Below, piece after piece: positions 18,940-57,641 of a DNA stretch of 64,000 bases. How positions within the stretch are numbered: the stretch's first letter is position 1; every line of letters begins with the position of its first letter. The stretch is from the NCBI GenBank assembly GCA_964474085.1, contig CAYYRJ010000004.1, forward strand, positions 11,656 through 75,655. Reading direction: 5' to 3'. The DNA comes from an uncultured Planctomycetales bacterium. GTDB lineage: Bacteria; Omnitrophota; Gorgyraeia; Zapsychrales; JANLHA01. The notes beneath the pieces were generated by a model. That model ran no database searches and was not told the DNA's origin. It worked only from the letters and a program-made list of their open reading frames with translations. The translations under genes and the position numbers were made by a program.

Positions 18940-20034
18940 ATGGAAAATCAGAGATATATTGATGAGCTTGATTTAAAAAGTTGTATCAAGATTATTGTTA
19001 AGAAAAAAACGCTTATTTTAACAACATCCCTTTTATCCGTCCTTATTTTAGCGACACCCGCTTTATTCGAACCTAAAATTTATTCGGCAACAGCTTCAAT
19101 CACAATAACTCCTCATAACATCACACACAAAATCCGGCTCAAATCAAATTTAATTTTAACCAGAATCATCCAAAATCTTAATTTAAAGAATTCTTCCGGA
19201 AAAGAACTAAGCGCAGATGAATTATCTGAAAAATTAACGACACGAAACGCCGGAGAAGATAATTTAACATATCTAGACGCAACTGCTGACAATCCAGAAA
19301 AAGCAAAAGAAATAGCCGATACCTGGGTACAAGAATATTTAAAACACATCCAAGAATTAAATGCTCAACAAGTTGCTATAACAGAAGGGTCCATCGCTAA
19401 ACAACTTGAATTAGCTCAAGCAAAGCTAAACCAAGCCCATGAAGATGTTCTCAACTTTAAAAAAACACATCGCGTTGATCTTTTGCGTACTGAATTACTT
19501 GCGAGAGAAACTGCTTTGGATGGAATAAAAAAACAACTTGCTCAAATGCAATTTGATGTGACTCTTAAGGAAATTATGCTTGCCGAGCTTAAAAATCAAA
19601 TGGCTTCAAAAGATAAACGAAACGCTACTTATCCTGACTTAGAAAAGCTCATCGTCGAAAATACGATAGAAATTAACACTTTCCCCTCCAAAGCTGAGTA
19701 TTTAAAAAAAACGATTGAAACGATGACAAAAGAAAACACACAATTAAATAATGAACTTATCGATAAGGAATTAGAGATCACAAAATTAACGCATGACGTT
19801 GATGTCCGGCAGAATGAATATCACACAGTTTCCGATAAAATGAATACAACGCGTAATGATCTGGCGCTTGTTCTAGGGGAGATAAAAATAATATCGACGG
19901 CTATCTCTCCAACGCAGCCTGTCAATCACGGAAAAATAAACAAGACAATCGCCCTGACAAGCGTTTTAGGCTTAATGCTTGGCATATTTATCGCTTTCTG
20001 CATCGAATTTTGGCAAAAAGGAAAAAAGGAATAG
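18940..20034 (+). CDS. wzz: Polysaccharide chain-length determinant (Wzz/PCP-like)
   Basis: N-terminal TM, long coiled-coil periplasmic region, C-terminal TM (ALTSVLGLMLGIFIAFCIEF). No kinase domain. Confidence 0.65.
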   Translation: MENQRYIDELDLKSCIKIIVKKKTLILTTSLLSVLILATPALFEPKIYSATASITITPHNITHKIRLKSNLILTRIIQNLNLKNSSGKELSADELSEKLTTRNAGEDNLTYLDATADNPEKAKEIADTWVQEYLKHIQELNAQQVAITEGSIAKQLELAQAKLNQAHEDVLNFKKTHRVDLLRTELLARETALDGIKKQLAQMQFDVTLKEIMLAELKNQMASKDKRNATYPDLEKLIVENTIEINTFPSKAEYLKKTIETMTKENTQLNNELIDKELEITKLTHDVDVRQNEYHTVSDKMNTTRNDLALVLGEIKIISTAISPTQPVNHGKINKTIALTSVLGLMLGIFIAFCIEFWQKGKKE

Positions 20035-20039
20035 ATGTA

Positions 20040-20882
20040 ATGGAAACTGTCATCCATGACGCCAAATACGATCTGATCATCGAAGCAGGACGTAGCGAAC
20101 ACCATTATTGGCAAGACATCTGGCGCTACAGGGAATTATTCTATTTTCTTGCGTGGCGGGATGTCGTCGTCAAATTTAAACAGACCGTCATCGGTGTGCT
20201 GTGGGCTTTAATACGACCACTGTTAACGATGGTCATTTTTGTTTTTATTTTTGGCAAATTGGCCAAATTTCCATCAGGAAATATCCCATACCCGCTTTTG
20301 GTCTTTGCTGCAATGCTTCCATGGCAATTTTTTGCCAGTTCTTTAAGCGAAAGCAGCAATAGCTTGATTTCCAATTCCAGTTTAATTTCAAAAGTTTATT
20401 TTCCCCGAATCATCATTCCAGCCTCATCGGTAATTGTCAGCTTGATTGATTTTTTAATATCCTTTTCAATCCTTTTGGTCTTGATGATCTGGTATAAGTT
20501 TATCCCCGGCTGGCAAATCTTAACATTGCCTTTATTTATCACTATGGCTTTCGCCGCTTCTTTTGGCGCCGGTCTGTGGCTGACTTCCTTAAACGTTAAA
20601 TTCCGCGATTTTCGCTACATTGTGCCATTTATGGTCCAGTTTGGGTTGTATATCTCTCCGGTAGGCTTCTCCAGCAGCATCATCCCCGAACAATGGCGAT
20701 TGCTTTATTCCCTTAATCCCATGGTCGGTGTCATTGATGGTTTTCGCTGGGCAATTTTAGGTCAGAAGGATCAAATATATTTACCGGGTTTTATTCTATC
20801 TTTGGTGTTGATACTTTTAGTTTTGGTTAACGGAATTTTATATTTTCGTAAAACCGAAAAAAAATTTGCGGATATCATCTAA
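20040..20882 (+). CDS. wzm: ABC-2 type polysaccharide/O-antigen export permease Wzm
   Basis: ABC-2 permease with six TM helices; N-terminal motif ELFYFLAWRDVVVKFKQTVIGVLWALIRPLLTM is typical of Wzm/TagG. Confidence 0.85.
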   Translation: METVIHDAKYDLIIEAGRSEHHYWQDIWRYRELFYFLAWRDVVVKFKQTVIGVLWALIRPLLTMVIFVFIFGKLAKFPSGNIPYPLLVFAAMLPWQFFASSLSESSNSLISNSSLISKVYFPRIIIPASSVIVSLIDFLISFSILLVLMIWYKFIPGWQILTLPLFITMAFAASFGAGLWLTSLNVKFRDFRYIVPFMVQFGLYISPVGFSSSIIPEQWRLLYSLNPMVGVIDGFRWAILGQKDQIYLPGFILSLVLILLVLVNGILYFRKTEKKFADII

Positions 20883-22166
20883 ATGTCCACCGTTATCAGA
20901 GTTGAAAATTTAGCCAAAAGTTACATGATCAGCCACGAGAGACGTGATCCATACGCGACTCTGCGCGATGTCATTGCGACTAAAGTGAAAAATTTATTTT
21001 CTGGTCGGGGCTCTGATTTAACACAAGAAGAATTCTGGGCCCTCAAGGATATCAATTTTGAAATTAAACAAAATGACCGTATCGGCATTATCGGCAGAAA
21101 CGGCGCCGGCAAGTCAACTTTGCTTAAAATCTTAAGCCGCATCACTGAGCCGACTCGTGGGCGGGTTTCCATTAAAGGACGCGTCGCCAGTCTTCTGGAG
21201 GTGGGAACAGGTTTTCATCCTGAATTGACTGGCCGGGAAAATATATTCTTAAACGGCGCTATTCTAGGGATGCGCAAGACCGAAATTGACCGAAAGTTTG
21301 ACGAGATCGTAAGTTTTGCCGAGATCGAAAAATTTGTCGATACACCCGTCAAGCGCTATTCAAGCGGAATGTATGTTCGCCTTGCCTTTGCGGTTGCCGC
21401 GCAGCTGGAGCCCGAAATTTTGATCGTTGACGAAGTCTTGGCCGTTGGGGACATCGTTTTTCAAAATAAATGTTTGGGCAAAATGGAAAATATTTCCAAA
21501 GAAGGCCGAACGGTCATTTTTGTAAGTCACAATATTGAGGCGATTCAAAAGCTATGCAACCGCGGAATTATTTTACATGAAGGGAAAGTTGCAATGCAGG
21601 GTGATGTTGACCAAGTCGTTAATAAATATCTTGGCGAAGGGTTAGGCTTAATCGGAGAGCAAGTCTGGCAGGACATTCAAAAAGCACCGGGAGATCAAGT
21701 TGTAAAGATGGTAGCCGTAAGGGTTTTAGATAAAAATGATAATGTCTGCACAAAATTTGATGTGCGTGATCCTGTAACTATCGAATTAGAGTACCACATT
21801 TTAGAAGCAGGGCATCGGTTGTGCACACAAATTTATTTTGTCAATGAGCTGGGCCACGTCCTTTTTATATCAAAAGATAATTTAGATTCTCCATGGAAAA
21901 ATACAGGCTGCAGCGTTGGACATTTTAAAAGCCACTGCCATGTGCCCGGCGATTTTCTTAATGAAGGCGAGGTTTCGATTGTTTATGGCATTGATACCGT
22001 CGGATCTTCTCTCGTAAATCATGCAACGGATCGGGATGTTGTCCGATTTAGAGTAACTGACCATATGGATCCGCGCGGTGTTCGTGGCAATTATCCGTTG
22101 ACATGGCGTCATGATGGCGTGCGGCCAAGGCTGCAATGGACTGTCGAAAAATCGATTCAATTTTAA
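20883..22166 (+). CDS. wzt: ABC transporter ATP-binding protein Wzt with C-terminal carbohydrate-binding extension
   Basis: Walker A GRNGAGKST, signature SSGMYVRL, Walker B ILIVDE. A C-terminal extension of about 170 aa after the NBD resembles the Wzt O-antigen-binding domain. Confidence 0.85.
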   Translation: MSTVIRVENLAKSYMISHERRDPYATLRDVIATKVKNLFSGRGSDLTQEEFWALKDINFEIKQNDRIGIIGRNGAGKSTLLKILSRITEPTRGRVSIKGRVASLLEVGTGFHPELTGRENIFLNGAILGMRKTEIDRKFDEIVSFAEIEKFVDTPVKRYSSGMYVRLAFAVAAQLEPEILIVDEVLAVGDIVFQNKCLGKMENISKEGRTVIFVSHNIEAIQKLCNRGIILHEGKVAMQGDVDQVVNKYLGEGLGLIGEQVWQDIQKAPGDQVVKMVAVRVLDKNDNVCTKFDVRDPVTIELEYHILEAGHRLCTQIYFVNELGHVLFISKDNLDSPWKNTGCSVGHFKSHCHVPGDFLNEGEVSIVYGIDTVGSSLVNHATDRDVVRFRVTDHMDPRGVRGNYPLTWRHDGVRPRLQWTVEKSIQF

Positions 22167-22180
22167 AGGAAACAATTACC

Positions 22181-23041
22181 ATGACGAACAATAAAACTTG
22201 TTATTTATGCTTTGGTGAATTGTTCACGAGAAGAAAGGGGATCGTCCGGGATAACCCAAACCTCAAAGTTTTAGAGTGTCAAAAATGCGGGCTGACGTCT
22301 TTGTCTTCTTTTTCCCATATTGATGATAAATTTTATCGTGACTCAAAGATGCACAATTCCGGCAAAGAAATCGAAGTGTGGTTAAAAGAAACTTCTGCTG
22401 ATGACGAAAGACGGTTTAAAACGTTCAAAAATTTTATTAAAAATAAATCCGTTCTTGACTTCGGTTGCGGTGCCGGAGGTTTTTTGAAACATGCAAAAAC
22501 TACCGCTTCTCGCATTCAAGGGGTTGAGTTAGAAAGTCGACTAAAGGCTCATTTTAAAAAAGAAAGAATCCCTCTAGCCACAAAACTTGAAACTCTCAAA
22601 CAAACTTTTGATGTGATCACACTTTTTCATGTCCTAGAGCATGTCCCTGACCCAATTTCATTATTAACAAATCTCAGCAAAAAATTAACCAAAACAGGAA
22701 GCATCATCGTCGAGGTCCCAAACGCTAATGATGCGCTGCTTTCTTTATACAACTCTAAAGAATTTTCAAGATTTACTTACTGGAGTTGTCACTTGTTTTA
22801 CTTTTCTTCTTTAACATTAGAAAAAATAGCAAAAAAATCAGGCTTAAAAGTAAATTACATAAAACAAGTCCAGCGATATCCTTTATCGAATCATTTGCAT
22901 TGGCTTTCAAAAGGAAAGCCGGGTGGGCATAAAATTTGGAATTTTTTCAATGACAGCAAACTAAATGAAATTTATGAATCGAAACTGAGAAATATTGATG
23001 GCTGTGATACACTTTTAGCGAGTTTTTCAAAAACAGGCTGA
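22181..23041 (+). CDS. Class I SAM-dependent methyltransferase with N-terminal Cys4 zinc-ribbon
   Basis: CYLCFG...CQKCGL zinc ribbon; SAM motif I VLDFGCGAGGF. Confidence 0.7.
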   Translation: MTNNKTCYLCFGELFTRRKGIVRDNPNLKVLECQKCGLTSLSSFSHIDDKFYRDSKMHNSGKEIEVWLKETSADDERRFKTFKNFIKNKSVLDFGCGAGGFLKHAKTTASRIQGVELESRLKAHFKKERIPLATKLETLKQTFDVITLFHVLEHVPDPISLLTNLSKKLTKTGSIIVEVPNANDALLSLYNSKEFSRFTYWSCHLFYFSSLTLEKIAKKSGLKVNYIKQVQRYPLSNHLHWLSKGKPGGHKIWNFFNDSKLNEIYESKLRNIDGCDTLLASFSKTG

Positions 23042-23079
23042 CCAGTTTGTATATTTACAAATAAATCCGGGTTCTTAAC

Positions 23080-23577
23080 ATGAAAAAGATCAATGCCAGC
23101 GATATCAAAGTTGTTGTGTTAGATTTTGATGGAGTTTTAACAGACAATAAAGTTTATGTCGATCAATTGGGACGAGAGATGGTTTGTTGTTCGCGGGCTG
23201 ATGGTTTGGCCTGTGAGATTTTAAAGAAATCTAATATTAAAGTCTTTATTTTATCTACGGAGAGAAATCCTGTTGTTGCTCGTCGTGCTGAAAAAATAAA
23301 TGTCGATTTACTTTTCGGGCTAACAGACAAATTGGGAGCATTAAACAAACTTGCTAAACAGCATCGATTTTCTTTGCAACACGTTTTGTACGTTGGTAAT
23401 GACGTCAACGATTTTACTGTTATGAAAGCTTGTGGCTTTCGAGCATCTCCTGCAGACGCTACGAAACAAATTAAAAAAATATCAAATATTCACTTAAAAA
23501 CAAAAGGGGGAGATGGAGTTGTTCGTGAAATTGTAAACGAAATTTTTAAGATTGATGTAACAAAAGACAACATTTAA
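23080..23577 (+). CDS. HAD-IIIA phosphatase of the KdsC/Kdn-9-phosphate phosphatase family
   Basis: DFDGVLTD motif I, about 165 aa, VGNDVND motif IV. This matches the KdsC / BT1713-like sugar-acid-phosphate phosphatases. Confidence 0.8.
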   Translation: MKKINASDIKVVVLDFDGVLTDNKVYVDQLGREMVCCSRADGLACEILKKSNIKVFILSTERNPVVARRAEKINVDLLFGLTDKLGALNKLAKQHRFSLQHVLYVGNDVNDFTVMKACGFRASPADATKQIKKISNIHLKTKGGDGVVREIVNEIFKIDVTKDNI

Positions 23578-23602
23578 AAGTACTCTAATCGAAAGGTGAG
23601 TC

Positions 23603-24451
23603 ATGCTGGAATTCAATAAAATCAAGGCCCCGTACCTTATTGGTGAAGTTGGTATCAATCACAATGGCGACATTCAGATTGCAAAGCGCCTTATCGATGC
23701 TGTTTTTGCCTGTGACTGGAGCTGTGTTAAGTTCCAGAAAAGAGATCCTGATATTTGCGTCCCTGATGACCAAAAAAATATTATGCGCGATACCCCTTGG
23801 GGTCGAATAACCTATCTCGAATATCGCAAAAAGGTCGAATTTGAAAAAAAAGAATTTGATTATATCGATAATTATTGCCGGCAAAAGCCTCTTTCTTGGG
23901 CCGCTTCGGTTTGGGATCTTAATAGTCTTAATTTCATTAAGAATTATGAGGTGGCGTTTATAAAAATCCCTTCTGCAAAATTGACAGACTTTGAACTTTT
24001 AGAGGCAGCAGGAAAAACTAAATTTCCCCTGATCCTGTCCACAGGAATGTCAACCATCGAAGAAGTCGATCAAGCTGTCGATATCATAAGAAAATCGTCT
24101 AATAATTTTATTCTTCTGCATACCAACTCAAGTTATCCTGCCAAAGATAGCGAATGCAATTTAAATTGTATTAAAACATTACGAGATCGTTATAAATGTC
24201 CCGTCGGATATAGCGGGCATGAACAAGGGCTTGAACCGACTGTTATGGCCGCTGTTTTAGGTGCTAATGTTATCGAAAGACACATAACAACCGACCATGC
24301 GTTATGGGGAACAGATCAAGCCGCCAGCGTTGCCCCGATGGGTATGGATATGCTGTATAAACGCGTTCGCAGTGTCAATGAGATTTTAGGAGATGGCGTA
24401 AAACGCATTTTTGATAGCGAAATTTCAGTCCGTAAAAAATTACGCGGGTAA
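23603..24451 (+). CDS. NeuB-family sialic-acid / nonulosonate(-9-phosphate) synthase-like enzyme, lacking C-terminal SAF domain
   Basis: N-terminus IGEVGINHNGDIQIAKRLIDA..KFQK is the NeuB/PseI/Kdn-9-P synthase TIM-barrel signature. At 282 aa it is too short to contain the antifreeze-like SAF domain. Confidence 0.75.
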   Translation: MLEFNKIKAPYLIGEVGINHNGDIQIAKRLIDAVFACDWSCVKFQKRDPDICVPDDQKNIMRDTPWGRITYLEYRKKVEFEKKEFDYIDNYCRQKPLSWAASVWDLNSLNFIKNYEVAFIKIPSAKLTDFELLEAAGKTKFPLILSTGMSTIEEVDQAVDIIRKSSNNFILLHTNSSYPAKDSECNLNCIKTLRDRYKCPVGYSGHEQGLEPTVMAAVLGANVIERHITTDHALWGTDQAASVAPMGMDMLYKRVRSVNEILGDGVKRIFDSEISVRKKLRG

Positions 24452-24473
24452 TATTTAATAGCTAAACAGATCT

Positions 24474-25163
24474 ATGTTAAATAAAAAAGAAGTTATTGCA
24501 ATTATCCCTGCAAGGGGAGGATCCAAAGGGATTGCGCGAAAAAATTTGTGTCTGTTAGACAGAAAGCCTTTGATCGCGCATACAATTCTTGATGCAAAGG
24601 AATCAAAAATTGTTGACCGGGTATATGTTTCTACCGAGGATCCAGAAATTGCATCCGTTTCTTCTTACTATGGCGCGGAAGTTATCGTAAGACCCCGAAA
24701 GCTAGCTGGTGACCGCACAACATCAGAAGCAGTTTTATTGCATGCGCTTGAAAAAATCAAAAAATCCGGGATTTCCCCTAATCTTATCGTTTTTTTACAA
24801 TGTACCTCTCCGATTAGGACTGCCGAGGATATCGACAAAGCTATTCTCACCCTGAATCGTAAAGCCGTGGACTCTCTTTTATCGGTATCCCCATCACATC
24901 GCTTTATTTGGGAAAAAGGCAAAAACCGTGTCCGGTCGCTTAATTATGATTATCGCGACCGATCTCGTCGGCAAGATATGCCGCCGCAATATTTAGAAAA
25001 TGGTTCTATTTACATTTTTAAGCCTTGGATATTAGAAAAATTTAATAATCGACTAGGTGGCAAAATAACGCTTTTTGAAATGAGCCACTGGAGCTCATTT
25101 GAAATTGATACGATTGAAGACTTCAAAATATGTGATTGGATAATGAAACAAAAGTTAATTTAG
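24474..25163 (+). CDS. Acylneuraminate (nonulosonate) cytidylyltransferase, CMP-NeuAc/CMP-Kdn synthetase-like
   Basis: IAIIPARGGSKGIARKNL N-terminal motif of the NeuA/KdsB family; about 229 aa. Confidence 0.8.
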   Translation: MLNKKEVIAIIPARGGSKGIARKNLCLLDRKPLIAHTILDAKESKIVDRVYVSTEDPEIASVSSYYGAEVIVRPRKLAGDRTTSEAVLLHALEKIKKSGISPNLIVFLQCTSPIRTAEDIDKAILTLNRKAVDSLLSVSPSHRFIWEKGKNRVRSLNYDYRDRSRRQDMPPQYLENGSIYIFKPWILEKFNNRLGGKITLFEMSHWSSFEIDTIEDFKICDWIMKQKLI

Positions 25164-25173
25164 AAAACAGCGT

Positions 25174-27076: not shown

Positions 27077-27095
27077 CTCGCAATAAAATTCAAAC

Positions 27096-27635: not shown

Positions 27636-27643
27636 TCATTACC

Positions 27644-47148: not shown

Positions 47149-47576
47149 ACTTAATTCCCGTCGAAGAATATCGCAAAATTCTCGAAGTCTTGCCAATCCT
47201 GTGTGTGGATATCATCGCCCAAAACAGCGCCGGCGAATATTTGTTAATTAAAAGGGCCAATGAACCCAAAAAGGATGTTTGGTGGGTCATCGGCGGCCGT
47301 GTCCTCAAAGGCGAGACGCTTAATGAAGCCGTCAAGCGCAAAGTCAAAGAAGAAACAGGCCTTGACGTTACCGACTTAAAGCCCGTTGGATATTTCGAAT
47401 TAGTGCAAGGCGCGAATCCTTTTGGACTGCCGTTTGAATATCACACGGTCAGTGTTGTTTTTTCGGCGGTGATTGACGAGACTCAGCCGATACGTCTAGA
47501 TAAGCAAAGTTTGGGATACAAATTTTCGAAAGAGTTGCCAGCTGATTTTGATGTTAAAGATTTTAAATCCTGTTAA
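47145..47576 (+). CDS. Nudix hydrolase, GDP-mannose mannosyl hydrolase (Gmm/WcaH)-like
   Basis: Nudix box GGRVLKGETLNEAVKRKVKEETGL; size and context next to gmd. Confidence 0.7.
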   Translation: MNLIPVEEYRKILEVLPILCVDIIAQNSAGEYLLIKRANEPKKDVWWVIGGRVLKGETLNEAVKRKVKEETGLDVTDLKPVGYFELVQGANPFGLPFEYHTVSVVFSAVIDETQPIRLDKQSLGYKFSKELPADFDVKDFKSC

Positions 47577-47596
47577 AAGAAAGTGCAGAAAGATTT

Positions 47597-49622: not shown

Positions 49623-49638
49623 TCAGAATATCGTCAAA

Positions 49639-51992: not shown

Positions 51993-52023
51993 AAAAATAA
52001 ATAAAATTTGGTAAGGTTAACCC

Positions 52024-52854
52024 ATGTATGACATTATCGCTTCGATTGTCACTTATAAAAATGACACAACCACTTTGTCAAAAGCCATCGCAAGCTTTTT
52101 AAATTCGGGCTTAAAGACGTATCTTTATGTCATCGACAATTCTCCGACAAACGAACTGAAGGATGTTTGCGCCTTTAAAAACGTCGAATACATCTTCAAT
52201 AATAAGAATGTGGGTTTTGGATCTGGGCATAATATAGCCCTGCGTAAAATGTCCAGCCAAACAAAATATTCGCTCATTTTAAACCCGGACGTTTACTTTG
52301 AGCCAAGGACACTCGAGAAATTATTTGATTTTATGGAAAAAAACAACGATGTCGGACTTGTTCTGCCTAAAGTTTTATATCCCGACGGTTCTTTGCAATA
52401 TCTTTGCCGATTATTGCCGGATCCCTGCGATATGCTCCTTCGAAAAATCGAAATAAAATTTTTAAGTCCTCTGCTGGATGCACAAAAAGCCCGCTACGAG
52501 CTTAGGTTTGCCGATTACAATACCCAAATGGAAGCTCCGTATTTGTCAGGATGTTTTATGTTTTTAAGAACAAATATCCTCGAAAAGACCGGTATTTTTG
52601 ATGAGCGTTTTTTTATCTATTTTGAAGATGTTGATTTGTCCAGACGAATTCACAAGCACTATCGCACCGTCTATTACCCAGAAGCGCTCATCACGCATGG
52701 ATATCAGCGCGGTTCCAATAAAGACAGCCATCTGCTCAAACATCTTGTTTCTTCGGGCATAAAATATTTTAATAAATGGGGCTGGTTTTTTGACCGCGAA
52801 CGAAAATTGGCGAACACGAAAGCAATAAAAAATTGCTACAAAAATCGTCTTTAA
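52024..52854 (+). CDS. Family 2 glycosyltransferase (rhamnosyltransferase-like)
   Basis: IVTYKNDTTTL...YVIDNSP and FEDVDLS motifs. Confidence 0.7.
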   Translation: MYDIIASIVTYKNDTTTLSKAIASFLNSGLKTYLYVIDNSPTNELKDVCAFKNVEYIFNNKNVGFGSGHNIALRKMSSQTKYSLILNPDVYFEPRTLEKLFDFMEKNNDVGLVLPKVLYPDGSLQYLCRLLPDPCDMLLRKIEIKFLSPLLDAQKARYELRFADYNTQMEAPYLSGCFMFLRTNILEKTGIFDERFFIYFEDVDLSRRIHKHYRTVYYPEALITHGYQRGSNKDSHLLKHLVSSGIKYFNKWGWFFDRERKLANTKAIKNCYKNRL

Positions 52855-52869
52855 AGGAACAAAGAAAAA

Positions 52870-54573
52870 ATGCCAACCGTTTTAATTACAGGCGCGACAG
52901 GGTTTATCGGGCGTGCTCTTTGCGTAAAAATGTTAAGTGAAGGGTGGAAGGTTAAAGGAACTTTTCGAAAAGAGTCCGAACCAAACACCCTGCCGCAAAG
53001 GGTTATCGGCGTTGCTCTGGACTTAACCAGTCCGTCTGTTTGCCCTCAAAGTGATTTTGCGGATGTCGATGTCGTCGTCCACTTGGCCGCACGTGTGCAC
53101 ATTCTCAAAGACCCGTCGAAAAATCCGCTTGAAGATTTTCGCAAAGCCAATGTCCAGGGAACAGAACATTTGGCGCGCATGGCAAAGGAAGCGGGGGTCA
53201 AAAGATTTATTTTTATCAGTTCCGTCAAAGTCAATGGGCAAGGGGCAAACCGCCCTTACAAAGAAACTGATATCCCGGCACCCGAAGATGCTTATGGAAT
53301 AACCAAGCGGGAAGCTGAAGACGTATTGAAAAATATTTCGCTTCAGACGGGTTTACCGACCGTCATTTTACGGCTACCCTTAGTTTATGGCCCGGGGGTG
53401 AAAGCGAATTTTAAAAATTTGATTAAGCTCGCTTCGTTGGGGCTGCCGTTGCCGTTTAAAAATATCCGCAATCAACGCAGTTTTCTTTATCTGGGTAATC
53501 TTATCGATGCGATAACGCTGTGCATCACGCATCCTAAGGCGATAAGCGAAACTTTTTTAGTCAGCGATGGGGAAGATATTTCAACACCAGATCTTCTGCG
53601 GCTGATCGCTGCGGCAAAAAACAAGCGACTCATTTTATTTTCTTTACCAACAGATTTTTTAAACAGGCTTGGAGCTCTGTTTAGACAAAATAAAACAATA
53701 GAAAAATTAACCGGTTCTCTGTGTGTTGACAACCGTAAAATCCAAAATTTACTCGGCTGGAAACCGCCCTTTACGCTAGAAGAGGGGATTGCAGAAACCG
53801 TTAAATTTCTCGAACATGATAAACCCAGATTTTGCATTAGCCAAACTCCTGTTTGGCCAAAGCAAAATCTGCCCGAAGGGCCGCATGTCTCGACAAAGTC
53901 GAGACGTGCGGGGTTAATCCTTGCGGTAAACCGCAACCGAAGGCAAATTTTGCATTTCCCTTTTTTGTGCGTGACGGATCGTCACGCACTATGTTGTAAT
54001 GCAAAATTTGGGATAAAACGCACCTTTGACCTGACTTTAGCAATTATTTTAATCCTTCTCTTGGCTTTGCCGATTCTTTTGATTGGCGCTTTTATCAAAT
54101 TAAAATCCAAAGGCCCGGCTTTTTTTTGGACGGATCGCGTCGGTGTCAATAACAACATTTTCAAAATGGTTAAATTCCGGACCATGCGCACCGACACGCC
54201 GCAGCTGGCCACGCATCTGATGAAAAATCCGCAAGACTATTTAATTGCAGGGGGAGAATTTTTGCGCAAGTACAGCCTTGATGAATTGCCGCAATTATTC
54301 AATGTGATTAAAGGGGATATGAGTTTTGTGGGACCTCGGCCGGCTCTGTTTAATCAGGATGATTTAGTGGCCCTGAGAACAGCCAAAGGGGTTCACAGGT
54401 TGATCCCCGGGATTACCGGCTGGGCTCAAGTTAACGGACGAGATGATTTGCCAATCCCCCAAAAAGTTTCGTTTGATGAAGAGTACTTACATCGACGGTC
54501 TTTGGCGTTTGATCTGTATATTATTTTTTTAACCGCATATAAAGTTCTTAAAAAAGAAGGCGTACGCCATTAA
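52870..54573 (+). CDS. Fusion protein: N-terminal NAD-dependent nucleotide-sugar epimerase + C-terminal small phosphoglycosyl transferase (PglC/WbaP-C-like bacterial sugar transferase)
   Basis: N-terminal VLITGATGFIGRAL epimerase domain (about 310 aa). C-terminal single TM followed by KMVKFRTMRTD and DELPQLFNVIKGDMSFVGPRP, the PGT catalytic signature. There is no in-frame stop between the domains. The linker is encoded by three perfect hairpins (53887-53989). Confidence 0.7.
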   Translation: MPTVLITGATGFIGRALCVKMLSEGWKVKGTFRKESEPNTLPQRVIGVALDLTSPSVCPQSDFADVDVVVHLAARVHILKDPSKNPLEDFRKANVQGTEHLARMAKEAGVKRFIFISSVKVNGQGANRPYKETDIPAPEDAYGITKREAEDVLKNISLQTGLPTVILRLPLVYGPGVKANFKNLIKLASLGLPLPFKNIRNQRSFLYLGNLIDAITLCITHPKAISETFLVSDGEDISTPDLLRLIAAAKNKRLILFSLPTDFLNRLGALFRQNKTIEKLTGSLCVDNRKIQNLLGWKPPFTLEEGIAETVKFLEHDKPRFCISQTPVWPKQNLPEGPHVSTKSRRAGLILAVNRNRRQILHFPFLCVTDRHALCCNAKFGIKRTFDLTLAIILILLLALPILLIGAFIKLKSKGPAFFWTDRVGVNNNIFKMVKFRTMRTDTPQLATHLMKNPQDYLIAGGEFLRKYSLDELPQLFNVIKGDMSFVGPRPALFNQDDLVALRTAKGVHRLIPGITGWAQVNGRDDLPIPQKVSFDEEYLHRRSLAFDLYIIFLTAYKVLKKEGVRH

Positions 54574-54621
54574 TTTCTGCTAAGATTGATTTCAAATTTT
54601 TTAAATTCCTATACTCGACCT

Positions 54622-56448
54622 ATGAATATAAAATCATTTCTCCTCAAATTCCGTCGTCCAATTGTTGTTATTGTGCATCTTGTTTTGGTGACCATCGCTT
54701 ATGTGATGGCTTTTTATCTGCGTTTGGATTTTAATATCAGCAGCACTTACTGGGGCGTCATCGAACGGACCCTGCCGCTGTTAATTTGTATTAAAACAAT
54801 CATTTTTGGGTCCTTTGGCCTGTTCTCGGGGCTGTGGCGATATATCGGCATTTCTGACATTTGGCGGATCATCAAAGTCCATGTGTTGGCGATGTTGTGT
54901 TTTGTTTTTATTATTTATGTCGCCTATCCTTTAAATGGATTTCCCCGGTCAATCTTTATTTTAGATTGCGTCTTGAGTTTTTGCCTTGTGACAGGCATCC
55001 GTTTTGTGACACGATTATTTAGAGAAAAATACCGGCCTGTTCCCGGTAGCACAAGAAAAAGGGCAATTATTGTCGGCGCGGGGGATGCGGGCGTGTTGGT
55101 GTTGCGCGATGTCAAATCGAATGTAAAAGCCAATCTCCAAATTGTCGGTTTTATCGACGATGATCCGGCCAAGAAGAATTTACATATTCAAGGAATTCCT
55201 ATCTTAGGCAACCAGAATGATATCCCGGAAATTGTCAATAAGTTTGGGGTCGATGAAGTGATTATTTCGATCCCTTCGGCCAAGGGAGAGACGATTCGAA
55301 GCATCGTCGCCAAGTGCGAAATATTATCCGTAAGAATCCGTATCGTCCCGGGATTACAAAAAATATTAAACGGCGAAATTGAAGTCAAACCCCGCGACAT
55401 AAGGCCGGAAGACCTTTTAGGCAGAGAAACCGTCACAATCAATGCGAAGGAAATCAGCAGTTACCTGACCCAAAAAGTCGTTTTGGTAACCGGCGCCGGC
55501 GGGTCAATCGGGTCGTGTCTTTGCCGGCAAATCGTAACGTTTAACCCTAAAGAACTCGTGCTGTTTGATCATAATGAAAATGATGTCTATTATCTAGTCA
55601 TTGATTTCTTGCGAAAATATCCGCACATCAAATTCAGAAGCATTATCGGGGATGTAAAAGATATCGGGCTTTTAAAAAATATGTTTTCACTTTACAAGCC
55701 GCAGGTGATCTTTCACGCCGCCGCCCATAAACATGTGCCTTTGATGGAAGAAAACCCGGTAGCTGCGGTAAAAAATAATGTTATCGGGACCCGCAATCTT
55801 ATTTATGCAGCTGACCATTATGGCGTCGAACGCTTTATTCTGATTTCATCCGATAAAGCAGTCAATCCAACCAATGTCATGGGAGCGACCAAACGTGTTG
55901 CCGAGATGATCCTGCAATCAAAGGCGAAACAAAGCAAAACCAAATTTATGGCCGTTCGGTTTGGAAATGTTTTAGGCTCCAACGGAAGCGTTGTCCCGTT
56001 ATTTAAAAAACAGATCGAACAAGGCGGGCCGGTCACCGTGACTGACCCAGACGTGACGAGATATTTTATGAGTGTCGATGAGGCTTGCCAGCTGGTTTTG
56101 CAGGCCGGAAGTATGGGTAAGGCAGGCGAAATTTTTATTTTGGATATGGGGGAACAAATCAAAATTTTGGATCTGGCCAAGGAACTTATCACGCTCTACG
56201 GTCTTAAACCCGACGAGGACATTAAAATCGAAATGATCGGTTTGCGCCCGGGCGAAAAACTTTACGAAGAAACATTGTTAGACACCGAAAGAGACCAAGC
56301 CACAAAGGAAGAAAAAATATATATCGCCCAATCTCTGCATTTTGACCCGCGGGCACTGCGGCGTGACATCAAAGAACTCGAAAAACTTATCAATGTCATG
56401 GACGGTCCGAAGGTTGCCAAGAAATTAAAAGAAATTATTACCGCATGA
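54622..56448 (+). CDS. Membrane-anchored UDP-sugar 4,6-dehydratase (CapD/WbpM/PglF family)
   Basis: Four N-terminal TM helices, then VVLVTGAGGSIGSCLCRQIV Rossmann motif and the CapD family C-terminal domain. Confidence 0.85.
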   Translation: MNIKSFLLKFRRPIVVIVHLVLVTIAYVMAFYLRLDFNISSTYWGVIERTLPLLICIKTIIFGSFGLFSGLWRYIGISDIWRIIKVHVLAMLCFVFIIYVAYPLNGFPRSIFILDCVLSFCLVTGIRFVTRLFREKYRPVPGSTRKRAIIVGAGDAGVLVLRDVKSNVKANLQIVGFIDDDPAKKNLHIQGIPILGNQNDIPEIVNKFGVDEVIISIPSAKGETIRSIVAKCEILSVRIRIVPGLQKILNGEIEVKPRDIRPEDLLGRETVTINAKEISSYLTQKVVLVTGAGGSIGSCLCRQIVTFNPKELVLFDHNENDVYYLVIDFLRKYPHIKFRSIIGDVKDIGLLKNMFSLYKPQVIFHAAAHKHVPLMEENPVAAVKNNVIGTRNLIYAADHYGVERFILISSDKAVNPTNVMGATKRVAEMILQSKAKQSKTKFMAVRFGNVLGSNGSVVPLFKKQIEQGGPVTVTDPDVTRYFMSVDEACQLVLQAGSMGKAGEIFILDMGEQIKILDLAKELITLYGLKPDEDIKIEMIGLRPGEKLYEETLLDTERDQATKEEKIYIAQSLHFDPRALRRDIKELEKLINVMDGPKVAKKLKEIITA

Positions 56449-57641
56449 AATTAAAAATTTCTAATTACCTGGATATCGGCATCCTCTATTGCCTTTATGC
56501 TCTTATTTTTTTTATTCCTATTTCTATCGCCGGGATTAGCATATTTGCCGGTCTGGCTATTCTTTTATTTGTGATCCGGCAAATTATCACACCGGATTTT
56601 CAAAACATCCGAACAAACAAAACGTTCTTTCTGCTGCTTCTGGTTTTTTTCTTTTTTATGGCCTTATCATTATTCAACAGCGGTCCACTTCTAGGAAAAA
56701 GCCTCAAAGCCCTGTTTCTCAAATGGGGAAGATTTCCTCTGCTTTTGTGGGTCATGATCGACACCTTGCGCGATAGCCGGCGCATTATCAATGCCGTATG
56801 GATTTTTGCCCTTAGCTCGATGATATTAGCGCTGACATCTTTTTCACAAAAATTTTTAGGACACGAATTTATCTTTGGGCATCCTTTAAATCCCGGTGGC
56901 ATCATCACCGGATCGTTTAAAAATCAAAATGACTTGGCGGCGTATCTAACTGCTGTCATCCCGATGATTTTGGGCTTTGCCTTATGGAAAACCGGAAGAA
57001 AATTTACGCAAATCGGTCTTTTTATACTTAGTGCGCTATTGCTTTGCGTTTGTGCGATGACTCTCTGCCGGGGAGGCTGGCTAGGTCTTGCGGTAGGGCT
57101 CATCTCAATTGTTTTACTTATCTGCTCCCACCATTTATCCCAAAAAACATTTTGGCCGCTGGCCGTGTCAGGCTACCTTTTCTTTGTGCCGCTAACAGCA
57201 CTGGCCTTATTTTTCTTTCAGAGCCGCGGGGATAGTGCACGCTTAATGCTTTATGAAGGGGCCTGGAAAATGATCGTCGAAAATCCATTTCTGGGCAAGG
57301 GATTAGGGACTTATATGGACCATTGTGCAAACTACATCCATCAAATTGGCGTTTATTATGTCCATAATTGTTTTTTACAAATATGGGCGGAATCGGGAAT
57401 TTTTTCTTTATTGAGTTTTCTTGTGCTAAATGGGTACGTCATTTATAAAAACTTTAACCTAACTCTACGGATCCCGGCGTCATTGGAATCTTTTTTATTT
57501 ATCGGCTTAAATGCCGGATTATTAGGTTTTTTGGTCCACTGTTTTTTTGATACACAGCTTTATTCTTTGCAGTTAAGTTTTCTTTTTTGGATTACGATGG
57601 GATTAACACTTGCGCTTTATACAAACCTAAAGCAAGGTTAA
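56445..57641 (+). CDS. O-antigen ligase family (Wzy_C domain; WaaL/PglL/PilO-like) membrane protein
   Basis: Polytopic protein with a periplasmic loop carrying CRGGWLGLAVGL, the Wzy_C signature around the conserved Arg. Confidence 0.7.
   Translation: MKLKISNYLDIGILYCLYALIFFIPISIAGISIFAGLAILLFVIRQIITPDFQNIRTNKTFFLLLLVFFFFMALSLFNSGPLLGKSLKALFLKWGRFPLLLWVMIDTLRDSRRIINAVWIFALSSMILALTSFSQKFLGHEFIFGHPLNPGGIITGSFKNQNDLAAYLTAVIPMILGFALWKTGRKFTQIGLFILSALLLCVCAMTLCRGGWLGLAVGLISIVLLICSHHLSQKTFWPLAVSGYLFFVPLTALALFFFQSRGDSARLMLYEGAWKMIVENPFLGKGLGTYMDHCANYIHQIGVYYVHNCFLQIWAESGIFSLLSFLVLNGYVIYKNFNLTLRIPASLESFLFIGLNAGLLGFLVHCFFDTQLYSLQLSFLFWITMGLTLALYTNLKQG

What the first reader, a model, noticed from the sequence alone, without database searches (positions are those of the whole stretch)
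18940..57641. About 39-kb glycan super-island mixing an ABC-transporter (Wzm/Wzt) pathway, Wzy/WaaL-like proteins without a Wzx flippase, and five GT-C enzymes
The island holds at least 35 consecutive co-oriented genes. These include Wzz, Wzm and Wzt, at least 9 GT2/GT4/GT11 transferases, two LbH acetyltransferases, five methyltransferases, an N-formyltransferase, a CE4 deacetylase, an aminotransferase, Gmd and more. There are also two ArnT/PMT-like GT-C enzymes plus two DPM1-like polyprenyl-P-sugar synthases, a Wzy-like protein and a terminal WaaL/PglL-like ligase, yet no MOP-family flippase. Polyprenyl-P-monosaccharide synthases paired with GT-C enzymes is the logic of periplasmic protein or glycan decoration. 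Together with the TPR-GT-C genes around the pilins, this points to an elaborate protein O-glycosylation system or a highly decorated O-antigen/S-layer glycan.
Basis: partly seen in the sequence, partly recalled or inferred. Interest (0 to 1): 0.7.

Follow-up and report, generated by a model that had tools for sequence, protein, structure and literature searches.

The report
Strain-variable 40-kb surface-glycan gene island
A 39.9-kb block of 41 sugar-chain genes next to recA in an uncultured Omnitrophota-like (PVC) bacterium is a strain-variable factory for a cell-surface polysaccharide, most likely an LPS O-antigen; it is built from known kinds of parts, and only the way they are combined is unusual.

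Summary
No MOP/Wzx flippase is present anywhere in the 64 kb.

New findings:
- A 94%-identical relative joins window 17783 directly to 57638. The block 17784-57637 (galE plus 40 genes, 39,854 bp) is therefore an exact presence/absence island. Other relatives carry different glycan genes at this recA-proximal site.
- The island is modular. A backbone shared with Omnitrophica MAGs carries Wzz, Wzm/Wzt, a nonulosonic-acid module, a GDP-sugar cassette with a Wzy_C protein, an initiating transferase and a WaaL-like ligase. Two GT-C cassettes (g16-g18, g20-g26) are inserted into it, and both recur elsewhere.
- g8, which no library classifies, has a sialyltransferase/Maf-like predicted fold.
- g40 matches solved WaaL, including its His-Asn motif. 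g35 is a more divergent Wzy_C protein.
- The pilin-side TPR membrane proteins have a GT-C fold.
- The epimerase-PGT "fusion" was created by a 189-bp repeat insertion.

Best reading: an ABC-transporter-dependent, capped, periplasmically decorated O-polysaccharide locus. Protein glycosylation and a dual-chain or Wzx-independent Wzy route are not excluded. Interest is moderate: a new variant of known kinds.

The parts
17784..57637 (+). Whole island: the 39,854-bp block absent from a 94%-identical relative. 41 genes, 98.9% coding, GC 0.404.
   Evidence: L001 1-279 aligns to window 17508-17783 and L001 320-520 to window 57638-57838, with a 40-nt spacer. Statistics.
17799..18812 (+). galE (UDP-glucose 4-epimerase), first gene of the block.
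   Evidence: NCBIfam TIGR01179 369.9 bits, above the cutoff of 262.3.
18889..20034 (+). g1: Wzz-like polysaccharide co-polymerase with two terminal TM helices.
   Evidence: PF13807 GNVR 41.4 bits; PF02706 Wzz 25.0 bits (gathering score 25.5). TM helices. A Wzz/GNVR gene also opens the related L008 island.
20010..20882 (+). g2: Wzm, the ABC-2 permease.
   Evidence: PF01061 62.8 bits. 55% identical to the L008 homologue.
20883..22166 (+). g3: Wzt, the ATPase, with a C-terminal carbohydrate-binding-type domain.
   Evidence: ABC_tran 82.3 bits; Wzt_C 28.7 bits (gathering score 30.4). Best solved match is Aquifex aeolicus Wzt, 8dku/7k2t, E 3.4e-65.
22136..23041 (+). g4: methyltransferase next to Wzt, a candidate chain-end modifier.
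   Evidence: Methyltransf_23 87.1 bits. A 53%-identical homologue is in L008. The role is inferred.
23080..25163 (+). g5-g7: nonulosonic-acid module, made of a KdsC-family phosphatase, a NeuB-type synthase (282 aa) and a CMP-sugar synthetase.
   Evidence: g5's best hit is the KDN-9-P phosphatase model NF058599, 123.6 bits (cutoff 180), ahead of KdsC. g6: NeuB 235.8 bits. g7: CTP_transf_3 82.1 bits and PseF-like 128.8 bits.
25174..27076 (+). g8 (unclassified family with a sialyltransferase/Maf-like fold) plus g9 (GT2). The two are fused into one protein in some homologues named for CPR (Candidate Phyla Radiation) lineages.
27096..31890 (+). g10-g15: two O-acetyltransferase-like LbH proteins, GT11, a methyltransferase, an SDR and a GT2 (EpsE-like). 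This stretch is part of the shared backbone.
   Evidence: The same order is seen in L008 and L009.
31881..35040 (+). g16-g18: inserted cassette 1, made of a CE4 deacetylase, a formyltransferase and a GT-C (PMT_2).
   Evidence: Polysacc_deac_1 87.5, Formyl_trans_N 44.5 and PMT_2 60.9 bits. Absent from L008/L010. Conserved as a unit in L012, L014 and L015 at 56-66% identity.
35042..35998 (+). g19: methyltransferase with two C-terminal TM helices (backbone gene).
   Evidence: 51% homologue in L008/L010.
35995..42517 (+). g20-g26: inserted cassette 2, made of a GT-C, an RmlC/FdtA-type cupin, an SDR, two short soluble DPM1/PpgS-like GT2, an RmlD-like reductase and a WecB-like UDP-GlcNAc 2-epimerase.
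   Evidence: Pfam. g24 vs DPMS 5mlz E 4.5e-17, GtrB 5ekp, ArnC and PgfS/PpgS. g26: wecB 207 bits (cutoff 210). The cassette keeps its order in L011, L013, L014 and L015 at 39-74% identity (mostly 49-74%). Absent from L008/L010.
42378..43478 (+). g27: Methyltransf_24 (backbone gene).
   Evidence: 70% homologue in L008/L010.
43491..52854 (+). g28-g37: conserved 10-gene cassette, made of GT2, WbuC cupin, LegC/PseC-like aminotransferase, sugar C-methyltransferase, NUDIX, GMD, GT2, Wzy_C-family g35, GT4 and GT2.
   Evidence: Same order at 49-84% identity in L004, L010 and L021.
49597..50907 (+). g35: divergent Wzy_C-family membrane protein, either a polymerase or a second ligase. It is not a flippase.
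   Evidence: No Pfam or PDB hit of its own. Most of its 402 homologues carry PF04932. Its profile hits WaaL 7tpg only at E 0.008, and it has D-A where WaaL has H-N.
52870..54573 (+). g38: SDR plus a small PglC-type phosphoglycosyl transferase, read as one ORF.
   Evidence: Epimerase 135.2 and Bac_transf 189 bits. These are two separate genes in L002 and L024.
53824..54012 (+). 189-bp structured repeat insertion with 15-nt terminal inverted repeats, placed just after the original PGT start. It creates the in-frame read-through.
   Evidence: Alignment with L002. Coordinates and self-matches. Fold of -96.7 kcal/mol and no other copy found.
54586..56448 (+). g39: PglF/WbpM-type membrane-anchored UDP-GlcNAc 4,6-dehydratase.
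   Evidence: Polysacc_synt_2 406.9 and CoA_binding_3 83.4 bits. PseB/FnlA-like.
56445..57641 (+). g40: WaaL-type glycan ligase (Wzy_C), last gene before recA.
   Evidence: PF04932 53.7 bits. The family profile hits solved WaaL 7tpg at E 6.6e-10, with invariant H307-N308 aligned to its AHN. Homologues sit beside the initiating transferase in L002, L003, L010, L021 and L024.
15901..17766 (+). Outside the island: GT-C (PMT_2) + TPR protein at the left border. Its 3' end is retained in the island-less relative.
   Evidence: PMT_2 43.8 bits plus many TPR families. L001 alignment.
3571..5334 (+). Outside the island: GT-C-fold membrane domain + TPR, beside the pilin genes.
8261..10246 (-). Outside the island: paralogue of the 3571 protein (GT-C-like + TPR).
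   Evidence: 33.5% identity over 391 residues of the membrane domain. TPR families.

Best explanation
The block is a hypervariable chromosomal locus for one heavily modified cell-surface polysaccharide. It is most likely the O-polysaccharide of LPS, in an uncultured Omnitrophota-like (PVC) bacterium, assembled by the ABC-transporter-dependent route. Gene content and modularity are shown; every biochemical step below is inferred.

1. **Initiation.** g39 (PglF-type dehydratase), the g38 SDR and the PglC-type PGT place a 6-deoxy-HexNAc-type sugar-phosphate on undecaprenyl phosphate.
2. **Elongation in the cytoplasm.** Nine GT-A/GT-B enzymes extend the chain. Donors include GDP-6-deoxy/amino/C-methyl hexoses made by g29-g33. 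Chains are also O-acetylated and methylated.
3. **Capping.** The chain end is capped by a KDN-like nonulosonic acid, made by g5-g7 and transferred by the sialyltransferase-like g8, and/or by methylation (g4). The Wzt C-terminal domain recognises the cap, and Wzm/Wzt exports the lipid-linked polymer.
4. **Periplasmic decoration.** Two accessory cassettes add side residues. The PpgS/DPM1-like g23/g24 charge undecaprenyl-P with a UDP-(6-deoxy-L-)HexNAc-type sugar made by g21, g22, g25 and g26. One variant may be N-deacetylated or N-formylated by g16/g17. The GT-C enzymes g18 and g20 transfer these sugars.
5. **Ligation.** The WaaL-type g40 joins the glycan to its acceptor.

The roles of the Wzz-like g1 and the second Wzy_C protein g35 are unresolved.
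For: **Gene content.**

**Export and ligation:**
- Wzt's closest solved relative is the O-antigen transporter of Aquifex. Cap recognition by Wzt carbohydrate-binding domains is documented (PMC9445017).
- The g40 family profile hits solved WaaL at 6.6e-10, with the His-Asn motif conserved.
- No Wzx in 64 kb.

**Nonulosonic-acid module:**
- g8 has a sialyltransferase/Maf-like fold and sits directly after a NeuB/CMP-synthetase module.
- This adjacency to Wzm/Wzt is kept in a relative.

**Periplasmic decoration:**
- g24's best matches are DPMS, GtrB, ArnC and PpgS.
- The GT-C cassettes are discrete units. They are absent from L008/L010 but conserved in order elsewhere, as expected for add-on decoration modules.
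- Periplasmic GT-C decoration of both Wzy- and ABC-dependent O-antigens is established (PMC11127046).

**Variability of the locus:**
- One 94%-identical relative has an empty site and another relative has different content.
- There is no tRNA at the borders, no Pfam hit to an integrase among the 41 genes, and GC is close to that of the left flank.
- A hyper-variable polysaccharide cassette has been reported in Omnitrophota (bioRxiv 10.64898/2026.05.20.726742).

**LPS link.** A GT9 gene (PF01075, Glyco_transf_9; from my own knowledge the LPS-core heptosyltransferase family) lies in a related island.
Against: - A Wzz-like co-polymerase and a second Wzy_C protein are not part of the canonical ABC route. 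Both are conserved in relatives, so the pathway may not be purely ABC-type.
- Wzt_C and Wzz score just below Pfam's gathering scores.
- No lipid A, core or Lpt genes are in the window, so an LPS acceptor is unproven.
- No GtrA/SMR/MATE-type flippase for the undecaprenyl-P-sugar donors was found.
- WaaL and protein O-oligosaccharyltransferases share the Wzy_C family and cannot be separated by these tests.
- A PglC-type PGT with a PglF-type dehydratase is also typical of protein glycosylation systems.
- A close relative lacks the whole block, so the glycan is dispensable.
- The PGT start is disrupted by a 189-bp insertion, so activity depends on the read-through or on an internal start.
Confidence: 0.55

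Rival explanations
1. Composite or dual-chain locus. Two assembly lines share one island. An ABC-exported polymer is made by g1-g27. A Wzy-type oligosaccharide is made by the g28-g37 cassette, polymerised by g35, length-controlled by g1, and flipped by a Wzx encoded elsewhere. The two products are either separate glycans or are joined outside the cytoplasm, as in lactococcal and enterococcal cell-wall polysaccharides.
For: - The g28-g37 cassette occurs at 49-84% identity in Omnitrophica MAG L004, followed there by a Polysacc_synt (Wzx) gene.
- g35 lies among the GT genes, lacks the WaaL His-Asn motif and matches WaaL only marginally.
- A Wzz-like gene opens the island.
- Dual-chain loci are known in lactococci (PMC10821137).
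Against: - No Wzx or Wzx remnant in the 64-kb window.
- The parts read of the 45-kb Omnitrophica contig (L008/L010, positions ~5.8-43.3 kb) and the 10 kb downstream of g35 in L021 carry the cassette with Wzm/Wzt (L008/L010) and/or two Wzy_C genes, but no Wzx.
- g35 orthologues are unusually well conserved, about 50-59% identical across many MAGs. That is atypical for Wzy polymerases (from my own knowledge).
Confidence: 0.22
2. Protein O-glycosylation system. The exported undecaprenyl-PP-glycan is transferred en bloc by one of the two Wzy_C enzymes, acting as a PglL/PilO/WsaB-type oligosaccharyltransferase, to pilins or other envelope proteins. This could happen in addition to LPS ligation by the other Wzy_C enzyme. 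The GT-C enzymes would add single sugars to proteins.
For: - There are two Wzy_C-family genes.
- The PglC-type PGT with a PglF-type dehydratase and an aminotransferase resembles pgl systems.
- Type IV pilin genes and three GT-C+TPR proteins with a PMT-like fold lie 8-14 kb upstream.
- GtrB-like plus GT-C pairs glycosylate proteins in streptococci (PMC12041528; g24's top NCBIfam hit is PgfS).
- ABC export followed by a Wzy_C-type transferase onto an S-layer protein is known in Geobacillus (own knowledge).
Against: - No target protein or sequon can be identified.
- The pilin-side GT-C genes lie outside the indel block, and at least the nearest is kept where the island is missing.
- g40 aligns well with a bona fide LPS ligase.
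- A Wzt with a carbohydrate-binding-type domain and a Wzz-like protein are typical of O-antigen loci.
- No S-layer gene is in the window.
Confidence: 0.15
3. Capsule or free exopolysaccharide locus (group-2-like). Wzm/Wzt acts like KpsMT and g1 like KpsE, and the product is not linked to lipid A.
For: g1 is 381 aa with two terminal TM helices and gives a weak BexC/CtrB/KpsE hit of 20 bits. Nonulosonic acids are common in capsules (own knowledge).
Against: - No outer-membrane export protein (Poly_export/Wza/KpsD) and no KpsC/KpsS-like genes in the window.
- A WaaL-type ligase closes the island.
- Wzt carries a C-terminal domain, which KpsT lacks (own knowledge).
Confidence: 0.05

Closest known systems
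ABC-transporter-dependent O-polysaccharide assembly with a cap-recognising Wzt (E. coli O9a, Klebsiella O12/Raoultella, Aquifex aeolicus WzmWzt; PMC9445017, PMC3482155)
   Same: Wzm + Wzt with an extra C-terminal domain; a polyprenyl-P initiating transferase; cytoplasmic GTs; candidate chain-end modifiers (a methyltransferase, and a keto-acid sugar module analogous to a terminal Kdo); a WaaL-type ligase; no Wzx.
   Different: - Wzz-like and second Wzy_C genes are present and conserved.
- The initiator is a PglC-type PGT rather than WecA, although relatives L010 and L021 use a WecA-like enzyme.
- The ligase is inside the locus.
- The cap chemistry is unknown, and Wzt_C scores below Pfam's cutoff.
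Three-component periplasmic glycosylation (Shigella/Salmonella GtrABC, Klebsiella gmlABC, Citrobacter pentofuranose system; PMC11127046) and mycobacterial PpgS/Rv3779 GalN addition (own knowledge)
   Same: A DPM1/GtrB/PpgS-like polyprenyl-P-sugar synthase is encoded next to a GT-C enzyme, as an add-on cassette within an O-antigen-type locus.
   Different: - No GtrA/SMR/MATE flippase gene.
- The synthases are short, soluble forms (235-241 aa) present as a pair.
- The cassette carries its own nucleotide-sugar pathway (cupin, two SDRs, a 2-epimerase).
- A second cassette adds a CE4 and a formyltransferase.
Dual-chain rhamnose-rich cell-wall polysaccharide loci of Lactococcus and Enterococcus (PMC10821137)
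   Same: One locus mixes an ABC exporter, a Wzy-type polymerase or ligase, and GT-C decoration systems.
   Different: Those loci encode a Wzx-type flippase (from my own knowledge; not checked in the cited paper), belong to Gram-positives and attach the product to peptidoglycan. Here no flippase is present and a WaaL-type ligase is.
Bacteroides thetaiotaomicron KDN pathway (KDN-9-P synthase, KDN-9-P phosphatase, CMP-KDN synthetase; own knowledge, plus NCBIfam NF058599)
   Same: The gene trio is a type-C0 HAD phosphatase, a NeuB-family synthase and a cytidylyltransferase. The phosphatase's best model is the KDN-9-P phosphatase.
   Different: All three score below the equivalog cutoffs. The synthase is only 282 aa and aligns with just the first ~275 of 329 positions of the NeuB model. 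The sugar's identity is untested. Relative L008 replaces the phosphatase with other tailoring genes.
Hyper-variable surface-polysaccharide cassettes in Omnitrophota and other free-living bacteria (bioRxiv 10.64898/2026.05.20.726742)
   Same: A strain-variable polysaccharide locus with an O-antigen ligase and many GTs, differing between close relatives.
   Different: That cassette is a different gene set (Etk/Wzc, AlgI/J, an LPS exporter). Here an exact empty site and the modular history are documented.
Eukaryotic PMT/TMTC-type GT-C + TPR protein O-mannosyltransferases (for the flanking genes only)
   Same: An N-terminal GT-C-fold membrane domain with an acidic DD motif in the first loop, and C-terminal TPRs.
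   Different: No Pfam match for the membrane domain of the 3571 and 8261 proteins. Acceptor and donor are unknown. These genes are not part of the island.

Membership tests
ABC-transporter-dependent O-polysaccharide pathway | Wzm (ABC-2 permease) and Wzt (nucleotide-binding subunit) encoded together | tested here: met
   PF01061 62.8 bits and PF00005 82.3 bits. The best solved match is Aquifex Wzt, 3.4e-65.
ABC-transporter-dependent O-polysaccharide pathway | Wzt C-terminal carbohydrate-binding domain plus a chain-terminating cap enzyme | tested here: inconclusive
   Wzt_C scores 28.7 bits against a gathering score of 30.4. Cap candidates are g4 and g5-g8, but they rest only on position and fold.
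ABC-transporter-dependent O-polysaccharide pathway | Polyprenyl-phosphate initiating transferase | tested here: met
   Bac_transf 189 bits in g38. Its start is disrupted by a 189-bp insert, but the ORF stays in frame.
ABC-transporter-dependent O-polysaccharide pathway | Product ligated to lipid A-core by WaaL | tested here: inconclusive
   The g40 profile hits solved WaaL 7tpg at 6.6e-10 with H307-N308 aligned. The acceptor cannot be read from sequence, and no lipid A or core genes are in the window.
Wzx/Wzy-dependent pathway | MOP-family Wzx flippase | tested here: not met
   No Polysacc_synt/MOP hit for any ORF of 100 aa or more. tblastn with a relative's Wzx finds nothing at E<=1. The rest of the genome was not searchable.
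Wzx/Wzy-dependent pathway | Wzy polymerase | tested here: inconclusive
   g35 belongs to the Wzy_C family through its homologues and lacks the ligase His-Asn motif. Polymerase activity cannot be tested here.
Wzx/Wzy-dependent pathway | Wzz chain-length regulator | tested here: met
   g1 has GNVR at 41.4 bits, Wzz at 25.0 bits (just under the 25.5 cutoff) and two terminal TM helices.
Three-component periplasmic glycosylation (Gtr-like) | Polyprenyl-P-sugar synthase of the GtrB/DPM1/ArnC/PpgS type | tested here: met
   g24 vs DPMS 5mlz 4.5e-17, GtrB 4.6e-13, ArnC 2.2e-8 and PgfS/PpgS. g23 matches only weakly.
Three-component periplasmic glycosylation (Gtr-like) | GT-C-fold transferase | tested here: met
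   g18 PMT_2 60.9 bits; g20 PMT_2 48.5 and PMT 28.5 bits.
Three-component periplasmic glycosylation (Gtr-like) | Small flippase for the lipid-linked donor (GtrA/SMR/MATE) | tested here: not met
   No such family appears among the island ORFs. The island is 98.9% coding, which leaves no room for an unlisted gene.
Arn (L-Ara4N lipid A modification) pathway | ArnA/ArnC/ArnD/ArnT orthologues | tested here: not met
   - g17 gives only 72.5 bits to ArnA (cutoff 777).
- g15 is EpsE-like, with ArnC at 22.6 bits.
- g16 gives no ArnD hit.
- g18 and g20 give no ArnT model hit.
Protein O-oligosaccharyltransferase systems (PglL/PilO/WsaB) | A Wzy_C-family transferase acting on protein acceptors | not testable with these tools
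   Two Wzy_C proteins are present. The family does not separate ligases from O-oligosaccharyltransferases by sequence.
CMP-nonulosonic acid (KDN/sialic-type) pathway | NeuB-type synthase + cytidylyltransferase (+ 9-phosphate phosphatase) | tested here: inconclusive
   All three domains are present, but each scores below the equivalog cutoff: 231.7/399.7, 128.8/205.7 and 123.6/180 bits.
Sialyltransferase-like glycosyltransferases (GT42/GT29/Maf) | Sialyltransferase-type fold and a CMP-sugar donor | tested here: inconclusive
Mobile genomic island | Presence/absence between close relatives | tested here: met
   The L001 junction, at 94% nt identity.
Mobile genomic island | Integrase, tRNA target or flanking direct repeats | tested here: not met
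   - No Pfam hit to an integrase among the 41 genes.
- The only tRNA is at 15049.
- Only a 6-nt CCTAAA coincidence occurs at the borders.
- GC is 0.404 against 0.399 in the left flank.

The most novel reading that the evidence does not exclude
A Wzx-independent hybrid pathway that is conserved in this Omnitrophota lineage. Wzm/Wzt would export undecaprenyl-PP-linked, nonulosonate-capped blocks. Then, in the periplasm, the conserved Wzy_C protein g35 and the Wzz-like g1 would polymerise the blocks or join them to a second acceptor, before or in parallel with ligation by the WaaL-type g40. One variant of this reading has g35 and g40 as two ligases, one for LPS and one for proteins such as pilins, sharing a single ABC-exported glycan. 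Support: the same mix (Wzz, Wzm/Wzt, two Wzy_C, no Wzx) recurs in the parts read of the 45-kb Omnitrophica contig, and the two-Wzy_C ending without a nearby Wzx recurs in L021.
Probability: 0.15. Interest if true: 0.65.

Novelty: new variant of a known kind. Interest (0 to 1): 0.35.

Why it matters
Omnitrophota are uncultured, very small cells, so their envelope is known only from genomes.

This locus shows four things:
- They carry a recA-proximal hypervariable surface-glycan site, with empty, alternative and 40-kb states among close relatives. From general knowledge of such loci, this is the pattern expected under phage or host-contact selection.
- The modular history can be read directly: a shared backbone plus two portable GT-C decoration cassettes.
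- There is a concrete candidate for a new nonulosonic-acid transferase family (g8, 111 homologues found, fused to a GT2 in some homologues named for CPR (Candidate Phyla Radiation) lineages).
- A conserved architecture pairs an ABC exporter with Wzz and Wzy_C proteins and no flippase. This gives a testable case for whether the two textbook O-antigen routes can be combined.

None of this overturns current models. Every part belongs to a known family.

Tried and rejected
1. **Arn-like lipid A aminoarabinose pathway for g14-g18** (epimerase, GT2, CE4, formyltransferase, GT-C). Rejected. g15 is EpsE-like and not ArnC. g16 gives no ArnD hit. g17 scores far below the ArnA cutoff.
2. **g35 as a hidden flippase.** Rejected. 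Its homologues carry Wzy_C.
3. **Wzx pseudogene remnant.** None found by tblastn.
4. **g38 as a natural bifunctional epimerase-PGT.** Rejected. L002 and L024 have two genes. The window has a 189-bp insertion and has lost the stop codon.
5. **Integrative mobile element.** No Pfam hit to an integrase among the island genes, no tRNA at the borders, no direct repeats and no GC shift.
6. **Group-2-type capsule.** No OPX or KpsC/KpsS genes.
7. **Single-sequence PDB searches** for g18, g20, g35 and g40 returned nothing. Only family profiles reached WaaL.
9. **Promoter and terminator scans at the island borders** were no better than shuffles, apart from the perfect recA promoter.
10. **Other copies of the 189-bp element.** None in the window or in the fetched loci.

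Full report
**Observation.** The window has 40 consecutive + strand ORFs between 18889 and 57641. Pfam assigns nearly all of them to glycan biosynthesis:

- g1: Wzz/GNVR.
- g2: ABC-2 permease.
- g3: ABC ATPase with a Wzt_C-like tail (28.7 bits, gathering score 30.4).
- Five methyltransferases: g4, g13, g19, g27, g31.
- g5-g7: HAD phosphatase, NeuB synthase and CMP-transferase.
- Seven GT2 (g9, g15, g23, g24, g28, g34, g37), one GT11 (g12) and one GT4 (g36).
- Two hexapeptide acyltransferases: g10, g11.
- CE4 (g16), formyltransferase (g17), two PMT_2 GT-C enzymes (g18, g20).
- Several SDR epimerases or reductases, a cupin (g21), a UDP-GlcNAc 2-epimerase (g26).
- DegT aminotransferase (g30), sugar C-methyltransferase (g31), NUDIX (g32), GMD (g33).
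- An SDR + Bac_transf ORF (g38), a PglF-type dehydratase (g39) and a Wzy_C protein (g40).

Its start, 18940, is simply the first ATG of g1. Co-orientation runs well beyond the island, from 11758 to 63537, so it is not what defines the island.

**No flippase.** The polytopic proteins in the window are PilC, the two TPR proteins at 3571 and 8261, an ICMT-like protein, a BcsA-like synthase, the 15901 GT-C, g1, g2, g18, g19, g20, g35, g39 and g40.

- All of these were assigned to a family directly or through homologues. The only exception is the N-terminal ~300 residues of the ICMT-like protein, which remain unassigned. None is a MOP-family protein.
- g35 has no Pfam or PDB hit of its own, but most of its 402 homologues carry PF04932 Wzy_C.
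- The Wzx of a related locus finds nothing in the window by tblastn at E<=1.

**Organism.** Names attached to homologues are mostly Candidatus Omnitrophica.

- The closest genome hits to g40 are a MAG labelled uncultured Planctomycetales (87% identity) and a Ca. Omnitrophota MAG (40%).
- The window's own proteins are on record on a 97.7-kb NCBI contig. Its record name could not be retrieved.
- I take the host to be an uncultured member of the PVC group, probably Omnitrophota.

**Exact borders and variability.** Contig L001 (GCA_964400065.1) is 94% identical to the window around recA.

- L001 positions 1-279 align with window 17508-17783, the 3' end of the GT-C+TPR gene 15901-17766.
- After a 40-nt spacer, L001 320-520 align with window 57638-57838, the recA upstream region.
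- So 17784-57637 is missing there: 39,854 bp, galE plus g1-g40, 98.9% coding, largest gap 76 nt, GC 0.404 against 0.399 in the left flank and 0.468 in the right flank.
- A 91%-identical contig (L002) carries g35-g40-recA.
- A more distant relative (L024, 82% nt identity, RecA 99% identical over the aligned part) keeps only the SDR-PGT-PglF-ligase end next to recA. Different genes lie upstream of that, and an extra SDR sits before recA.
- There is no tRNA at the borders (the only one is at 15049), no Pfam hit to an integrase among the island genes, and no meaningful direct repeat.
- This is the pattern of a recombining hypervariable surface-polysaccharide locus, not of a mobile element. A 2026 preprint describes a hyper-variable polysaccharide cassette in an Omnitrophota strain swarm.

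**Modular anatomy.** Comparison with fetched loci shows four layers.

1. *Backbone.* A 45-kb Omnitrophica contig (L008/L010) has this order:
   - Wzz, two SDRs, Wzm, Wzt (63% identical), NeuB, CMP-transferase, tailoring genes;
   - a g4-like methyltransferase, g8 (62%), g9 (62%), an LbH protein, an aminotransferase;
   - GT11, methyltransferase, GT2, g19-like and g27-like methyltransferases;
   - the g28-g37 cassette, then a WecA-like transferase, a second Wzy_C and two GT2.
   The stretch read (positions ~5.8-43.3 kb) has no Wzx and no GT-C genes.
2. *The g28-g37 cassette.* It recurs at 49-84% identity in L004, L010 and L021. In L004 it is followed by a Polysacc_synt (Wzx) gene. In L010 and L021 it is followed by a WecA-like transferase and a second Wzy_C, and in L021 housekeeping genes come next.
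3. *Two inserted cassettes.* g16-g18 (CE4, formyltransferase, GT-C) and g20-g26 (GT-C, cupin, SDR, two short GT2, RmlD-like reductase, 2-epimerase) are absent from L008/L010. They are conserved, in order and mostly at about 50-75% identity, in several metagenome contigs (L011-L016).
4. *The 3' end.* SDR, PGT, PglF and ligase are the part most conserved among near relatives.

**Individual genes.**

- *Wzt.* Its best solved match is Aquifex aeolicus Wzt (3.4e-65), and the match extends past the nucleotide-binding domain.
- *g5-g7.* g5's best NCBIfam model is the KDN-9-phosphate phosphatase (123.6 bits, cutoff 180), ahead of KdsC. g6 is NeuB-like (231.7 bits) but only 282 aa, and it aligns with just the first ~275 of 329 model positions. 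g7 is PseF/KdsB-like.
- *g23 and g24.* g24 matches archaeal DPMS (4.5e-17), GtrB and ArnC in the PDB, and PgfS, PpgS and ArnC in NCBIfam. g23 is a weak paralogue. Neither has a TM helix.
- *g26, g10, galE.* g26 is WecB-like, 207 bits against a cutoff of 210. g10 is an O-acetyltransferase type. galE passes its equivalog cutoff.
- *g40.* A profile of 43 family members hits solved WaaL (7tpg) at 6.6e-10, with invariant H307-N308 aligned to its AHN.
- *g35.* Its profile reaches 7tpg only at E 0.008, and it has Asp-Ala at that position.

**The 'fusion'.** In L002 and L024 the SDR and the 187-aa PGT are separate genes.

- The window has a 189-bp insert (53824-54012) with 15-nt terminal inverted repeats, placed directly after the PGT's original ATG ATA AA.
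- The SDR's stop codon has also changed, so one ORF now reads through a 69-residue linker into the PGT.
- The insert folds strongly (-96.7 kcal/mol) and has no second full copy.
- In-frame TTG and GTG codons near its 3' end could also restart the PGT. That is my inference from the sequence.

**Flanking GT-C genes.**

- The 15901 protein is PMT_2 + TPR.
- The 8261 protein is its paralogue.
- 'Five GT-C' is therefore right for the window as a whole, but three of them lie outside the island. At least the nearest one persists where the island is absent.

**Mechanism.**

- *Shown:* gene content, modularity, variability, fold and family assignments.
- *Inferred:*
  - initiation by g39/g38;
  - cytoplasmic elongation and tailoring;
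  - a nonulosonate and/or methyl cap read by the Wzt tail (precedent in PMC9445017) and export by Wzm/Wzt;
  - periplasmic side-branching by g18 and g20, from undecaprenyl-P-sugars made by g23 and g24 (precedent in PMC11127046; the same logic is used on proteins in PMC12041528);
  - ligation by g40.
- The gene set g21, g22, g25, g26 resembles pathways to UDP-6-deoxy-L-HexNAc sugars. That resemblance is from my own knowledge and was not tested.
- The roles of g1 and g35 are open. They suggest either a second Wzy-type line with an unlinked Wzx, a second ligase, or a hybrid route.

**Comparison and novelty.** Every component belongs to a known family, and each sub-logic has precedents: ABC-dependent O-polysaccharide assembly, three-component decoration, nonulosonate synthesis, and hypervariable glycan loci. 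Four things are not standard:

- the conserved co-occurrence of Wzm/Wzt with Wzz and two Wzy_C proteins and no flippase;
- the absence of a donor flippase in the GT-C cassettes;
- the unclassified sialyltransferase-like g8 family;
- the documented empty site.

I rate it a new variant of known kinds and of moderate interest.

Noticed in passing
window 5428-5531 (+): A c-di-GMP-I riboswitch (RF01051, 59 bits, gathering score 35) lies in the 377-nt gap just upstream of the first type IV pilin gene (5712). Pilin expression may therefore be c-di-GMP controlled. A PilZ-domain synthase is also in the window.
   Followed up: no
window 5712-6131 and 6235-6645: Two tandem pilin genes (N_methyl + ComP_DUS-like) are 94% identical to each other. 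Two or three more pilin-like genes follow, at 6659-8245.
   Followed up: no
window 53824-54012: A 189-bp highly structured insert with 15-nt terminal inverted repeats (CCCAGATTTTGCATT / AATGCAAAATTTGGG) sits at the start of the PGT gene and fuses it in frame to the upstream SDR. Its first hairpin resembles a hairpin at 14926-14975, downstream of the GT2-PilZ gene.
   Followed up: partly
window 57647-57675: A perfect sigma-70 consensus (TTGACA-17-TATAAT) lies immediately after the island's right border, upstream of recA. It is conserved in the island-less relative L001.
   Followed up: partly
window 10254-14896: An ICMT/PEMT-like membrane protein (- strand), a HlyD-family protein and a 741-aa GT2 + PilZ (BcsA-like) synthase lie here. 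This looks like a separate c-di-GMP-dependent synthase-type exopolysaccharide system.
   Followed up: no
window 3571-5334 and 8261-10246 (-): Two paralogous GT-C-fold + TPR proteins flank the pilin genes. They share motifs F-x-x-DD, HYNPL and HP(I/M)NAE, which from memory resemble eukaryotic TMTC O-mannosyltransferases. Pfam gives no hit for the membrane domain.
   Followed up: partly
L024 5691-7602: In a related species the PglF-type dehydratase is split into two ORFs (239 + 410 aa). This is either a frameshift or a genuine split.
   Followed up: no
L021 1839-2891; L008 9204-10004; L004, L021 and L003 flanks: Related islands carry a GT9 gene (PF01075, Glyco_transf_9) and several B12-binding/radical-SAM and SPASM enzymes among the glycan genes. 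These hint at unusual sugar tailoring in this lineage.
   Followed up: no
window 35995-37557 (g20): The best NCBIfam hit of this GT-C is the archaeal 'flippase activity-associated protein Agl23' model (43.8 bits, far below its cutoff of 126). This is noted because no donor flippase gene was found in the cassette.
   Followed up: no
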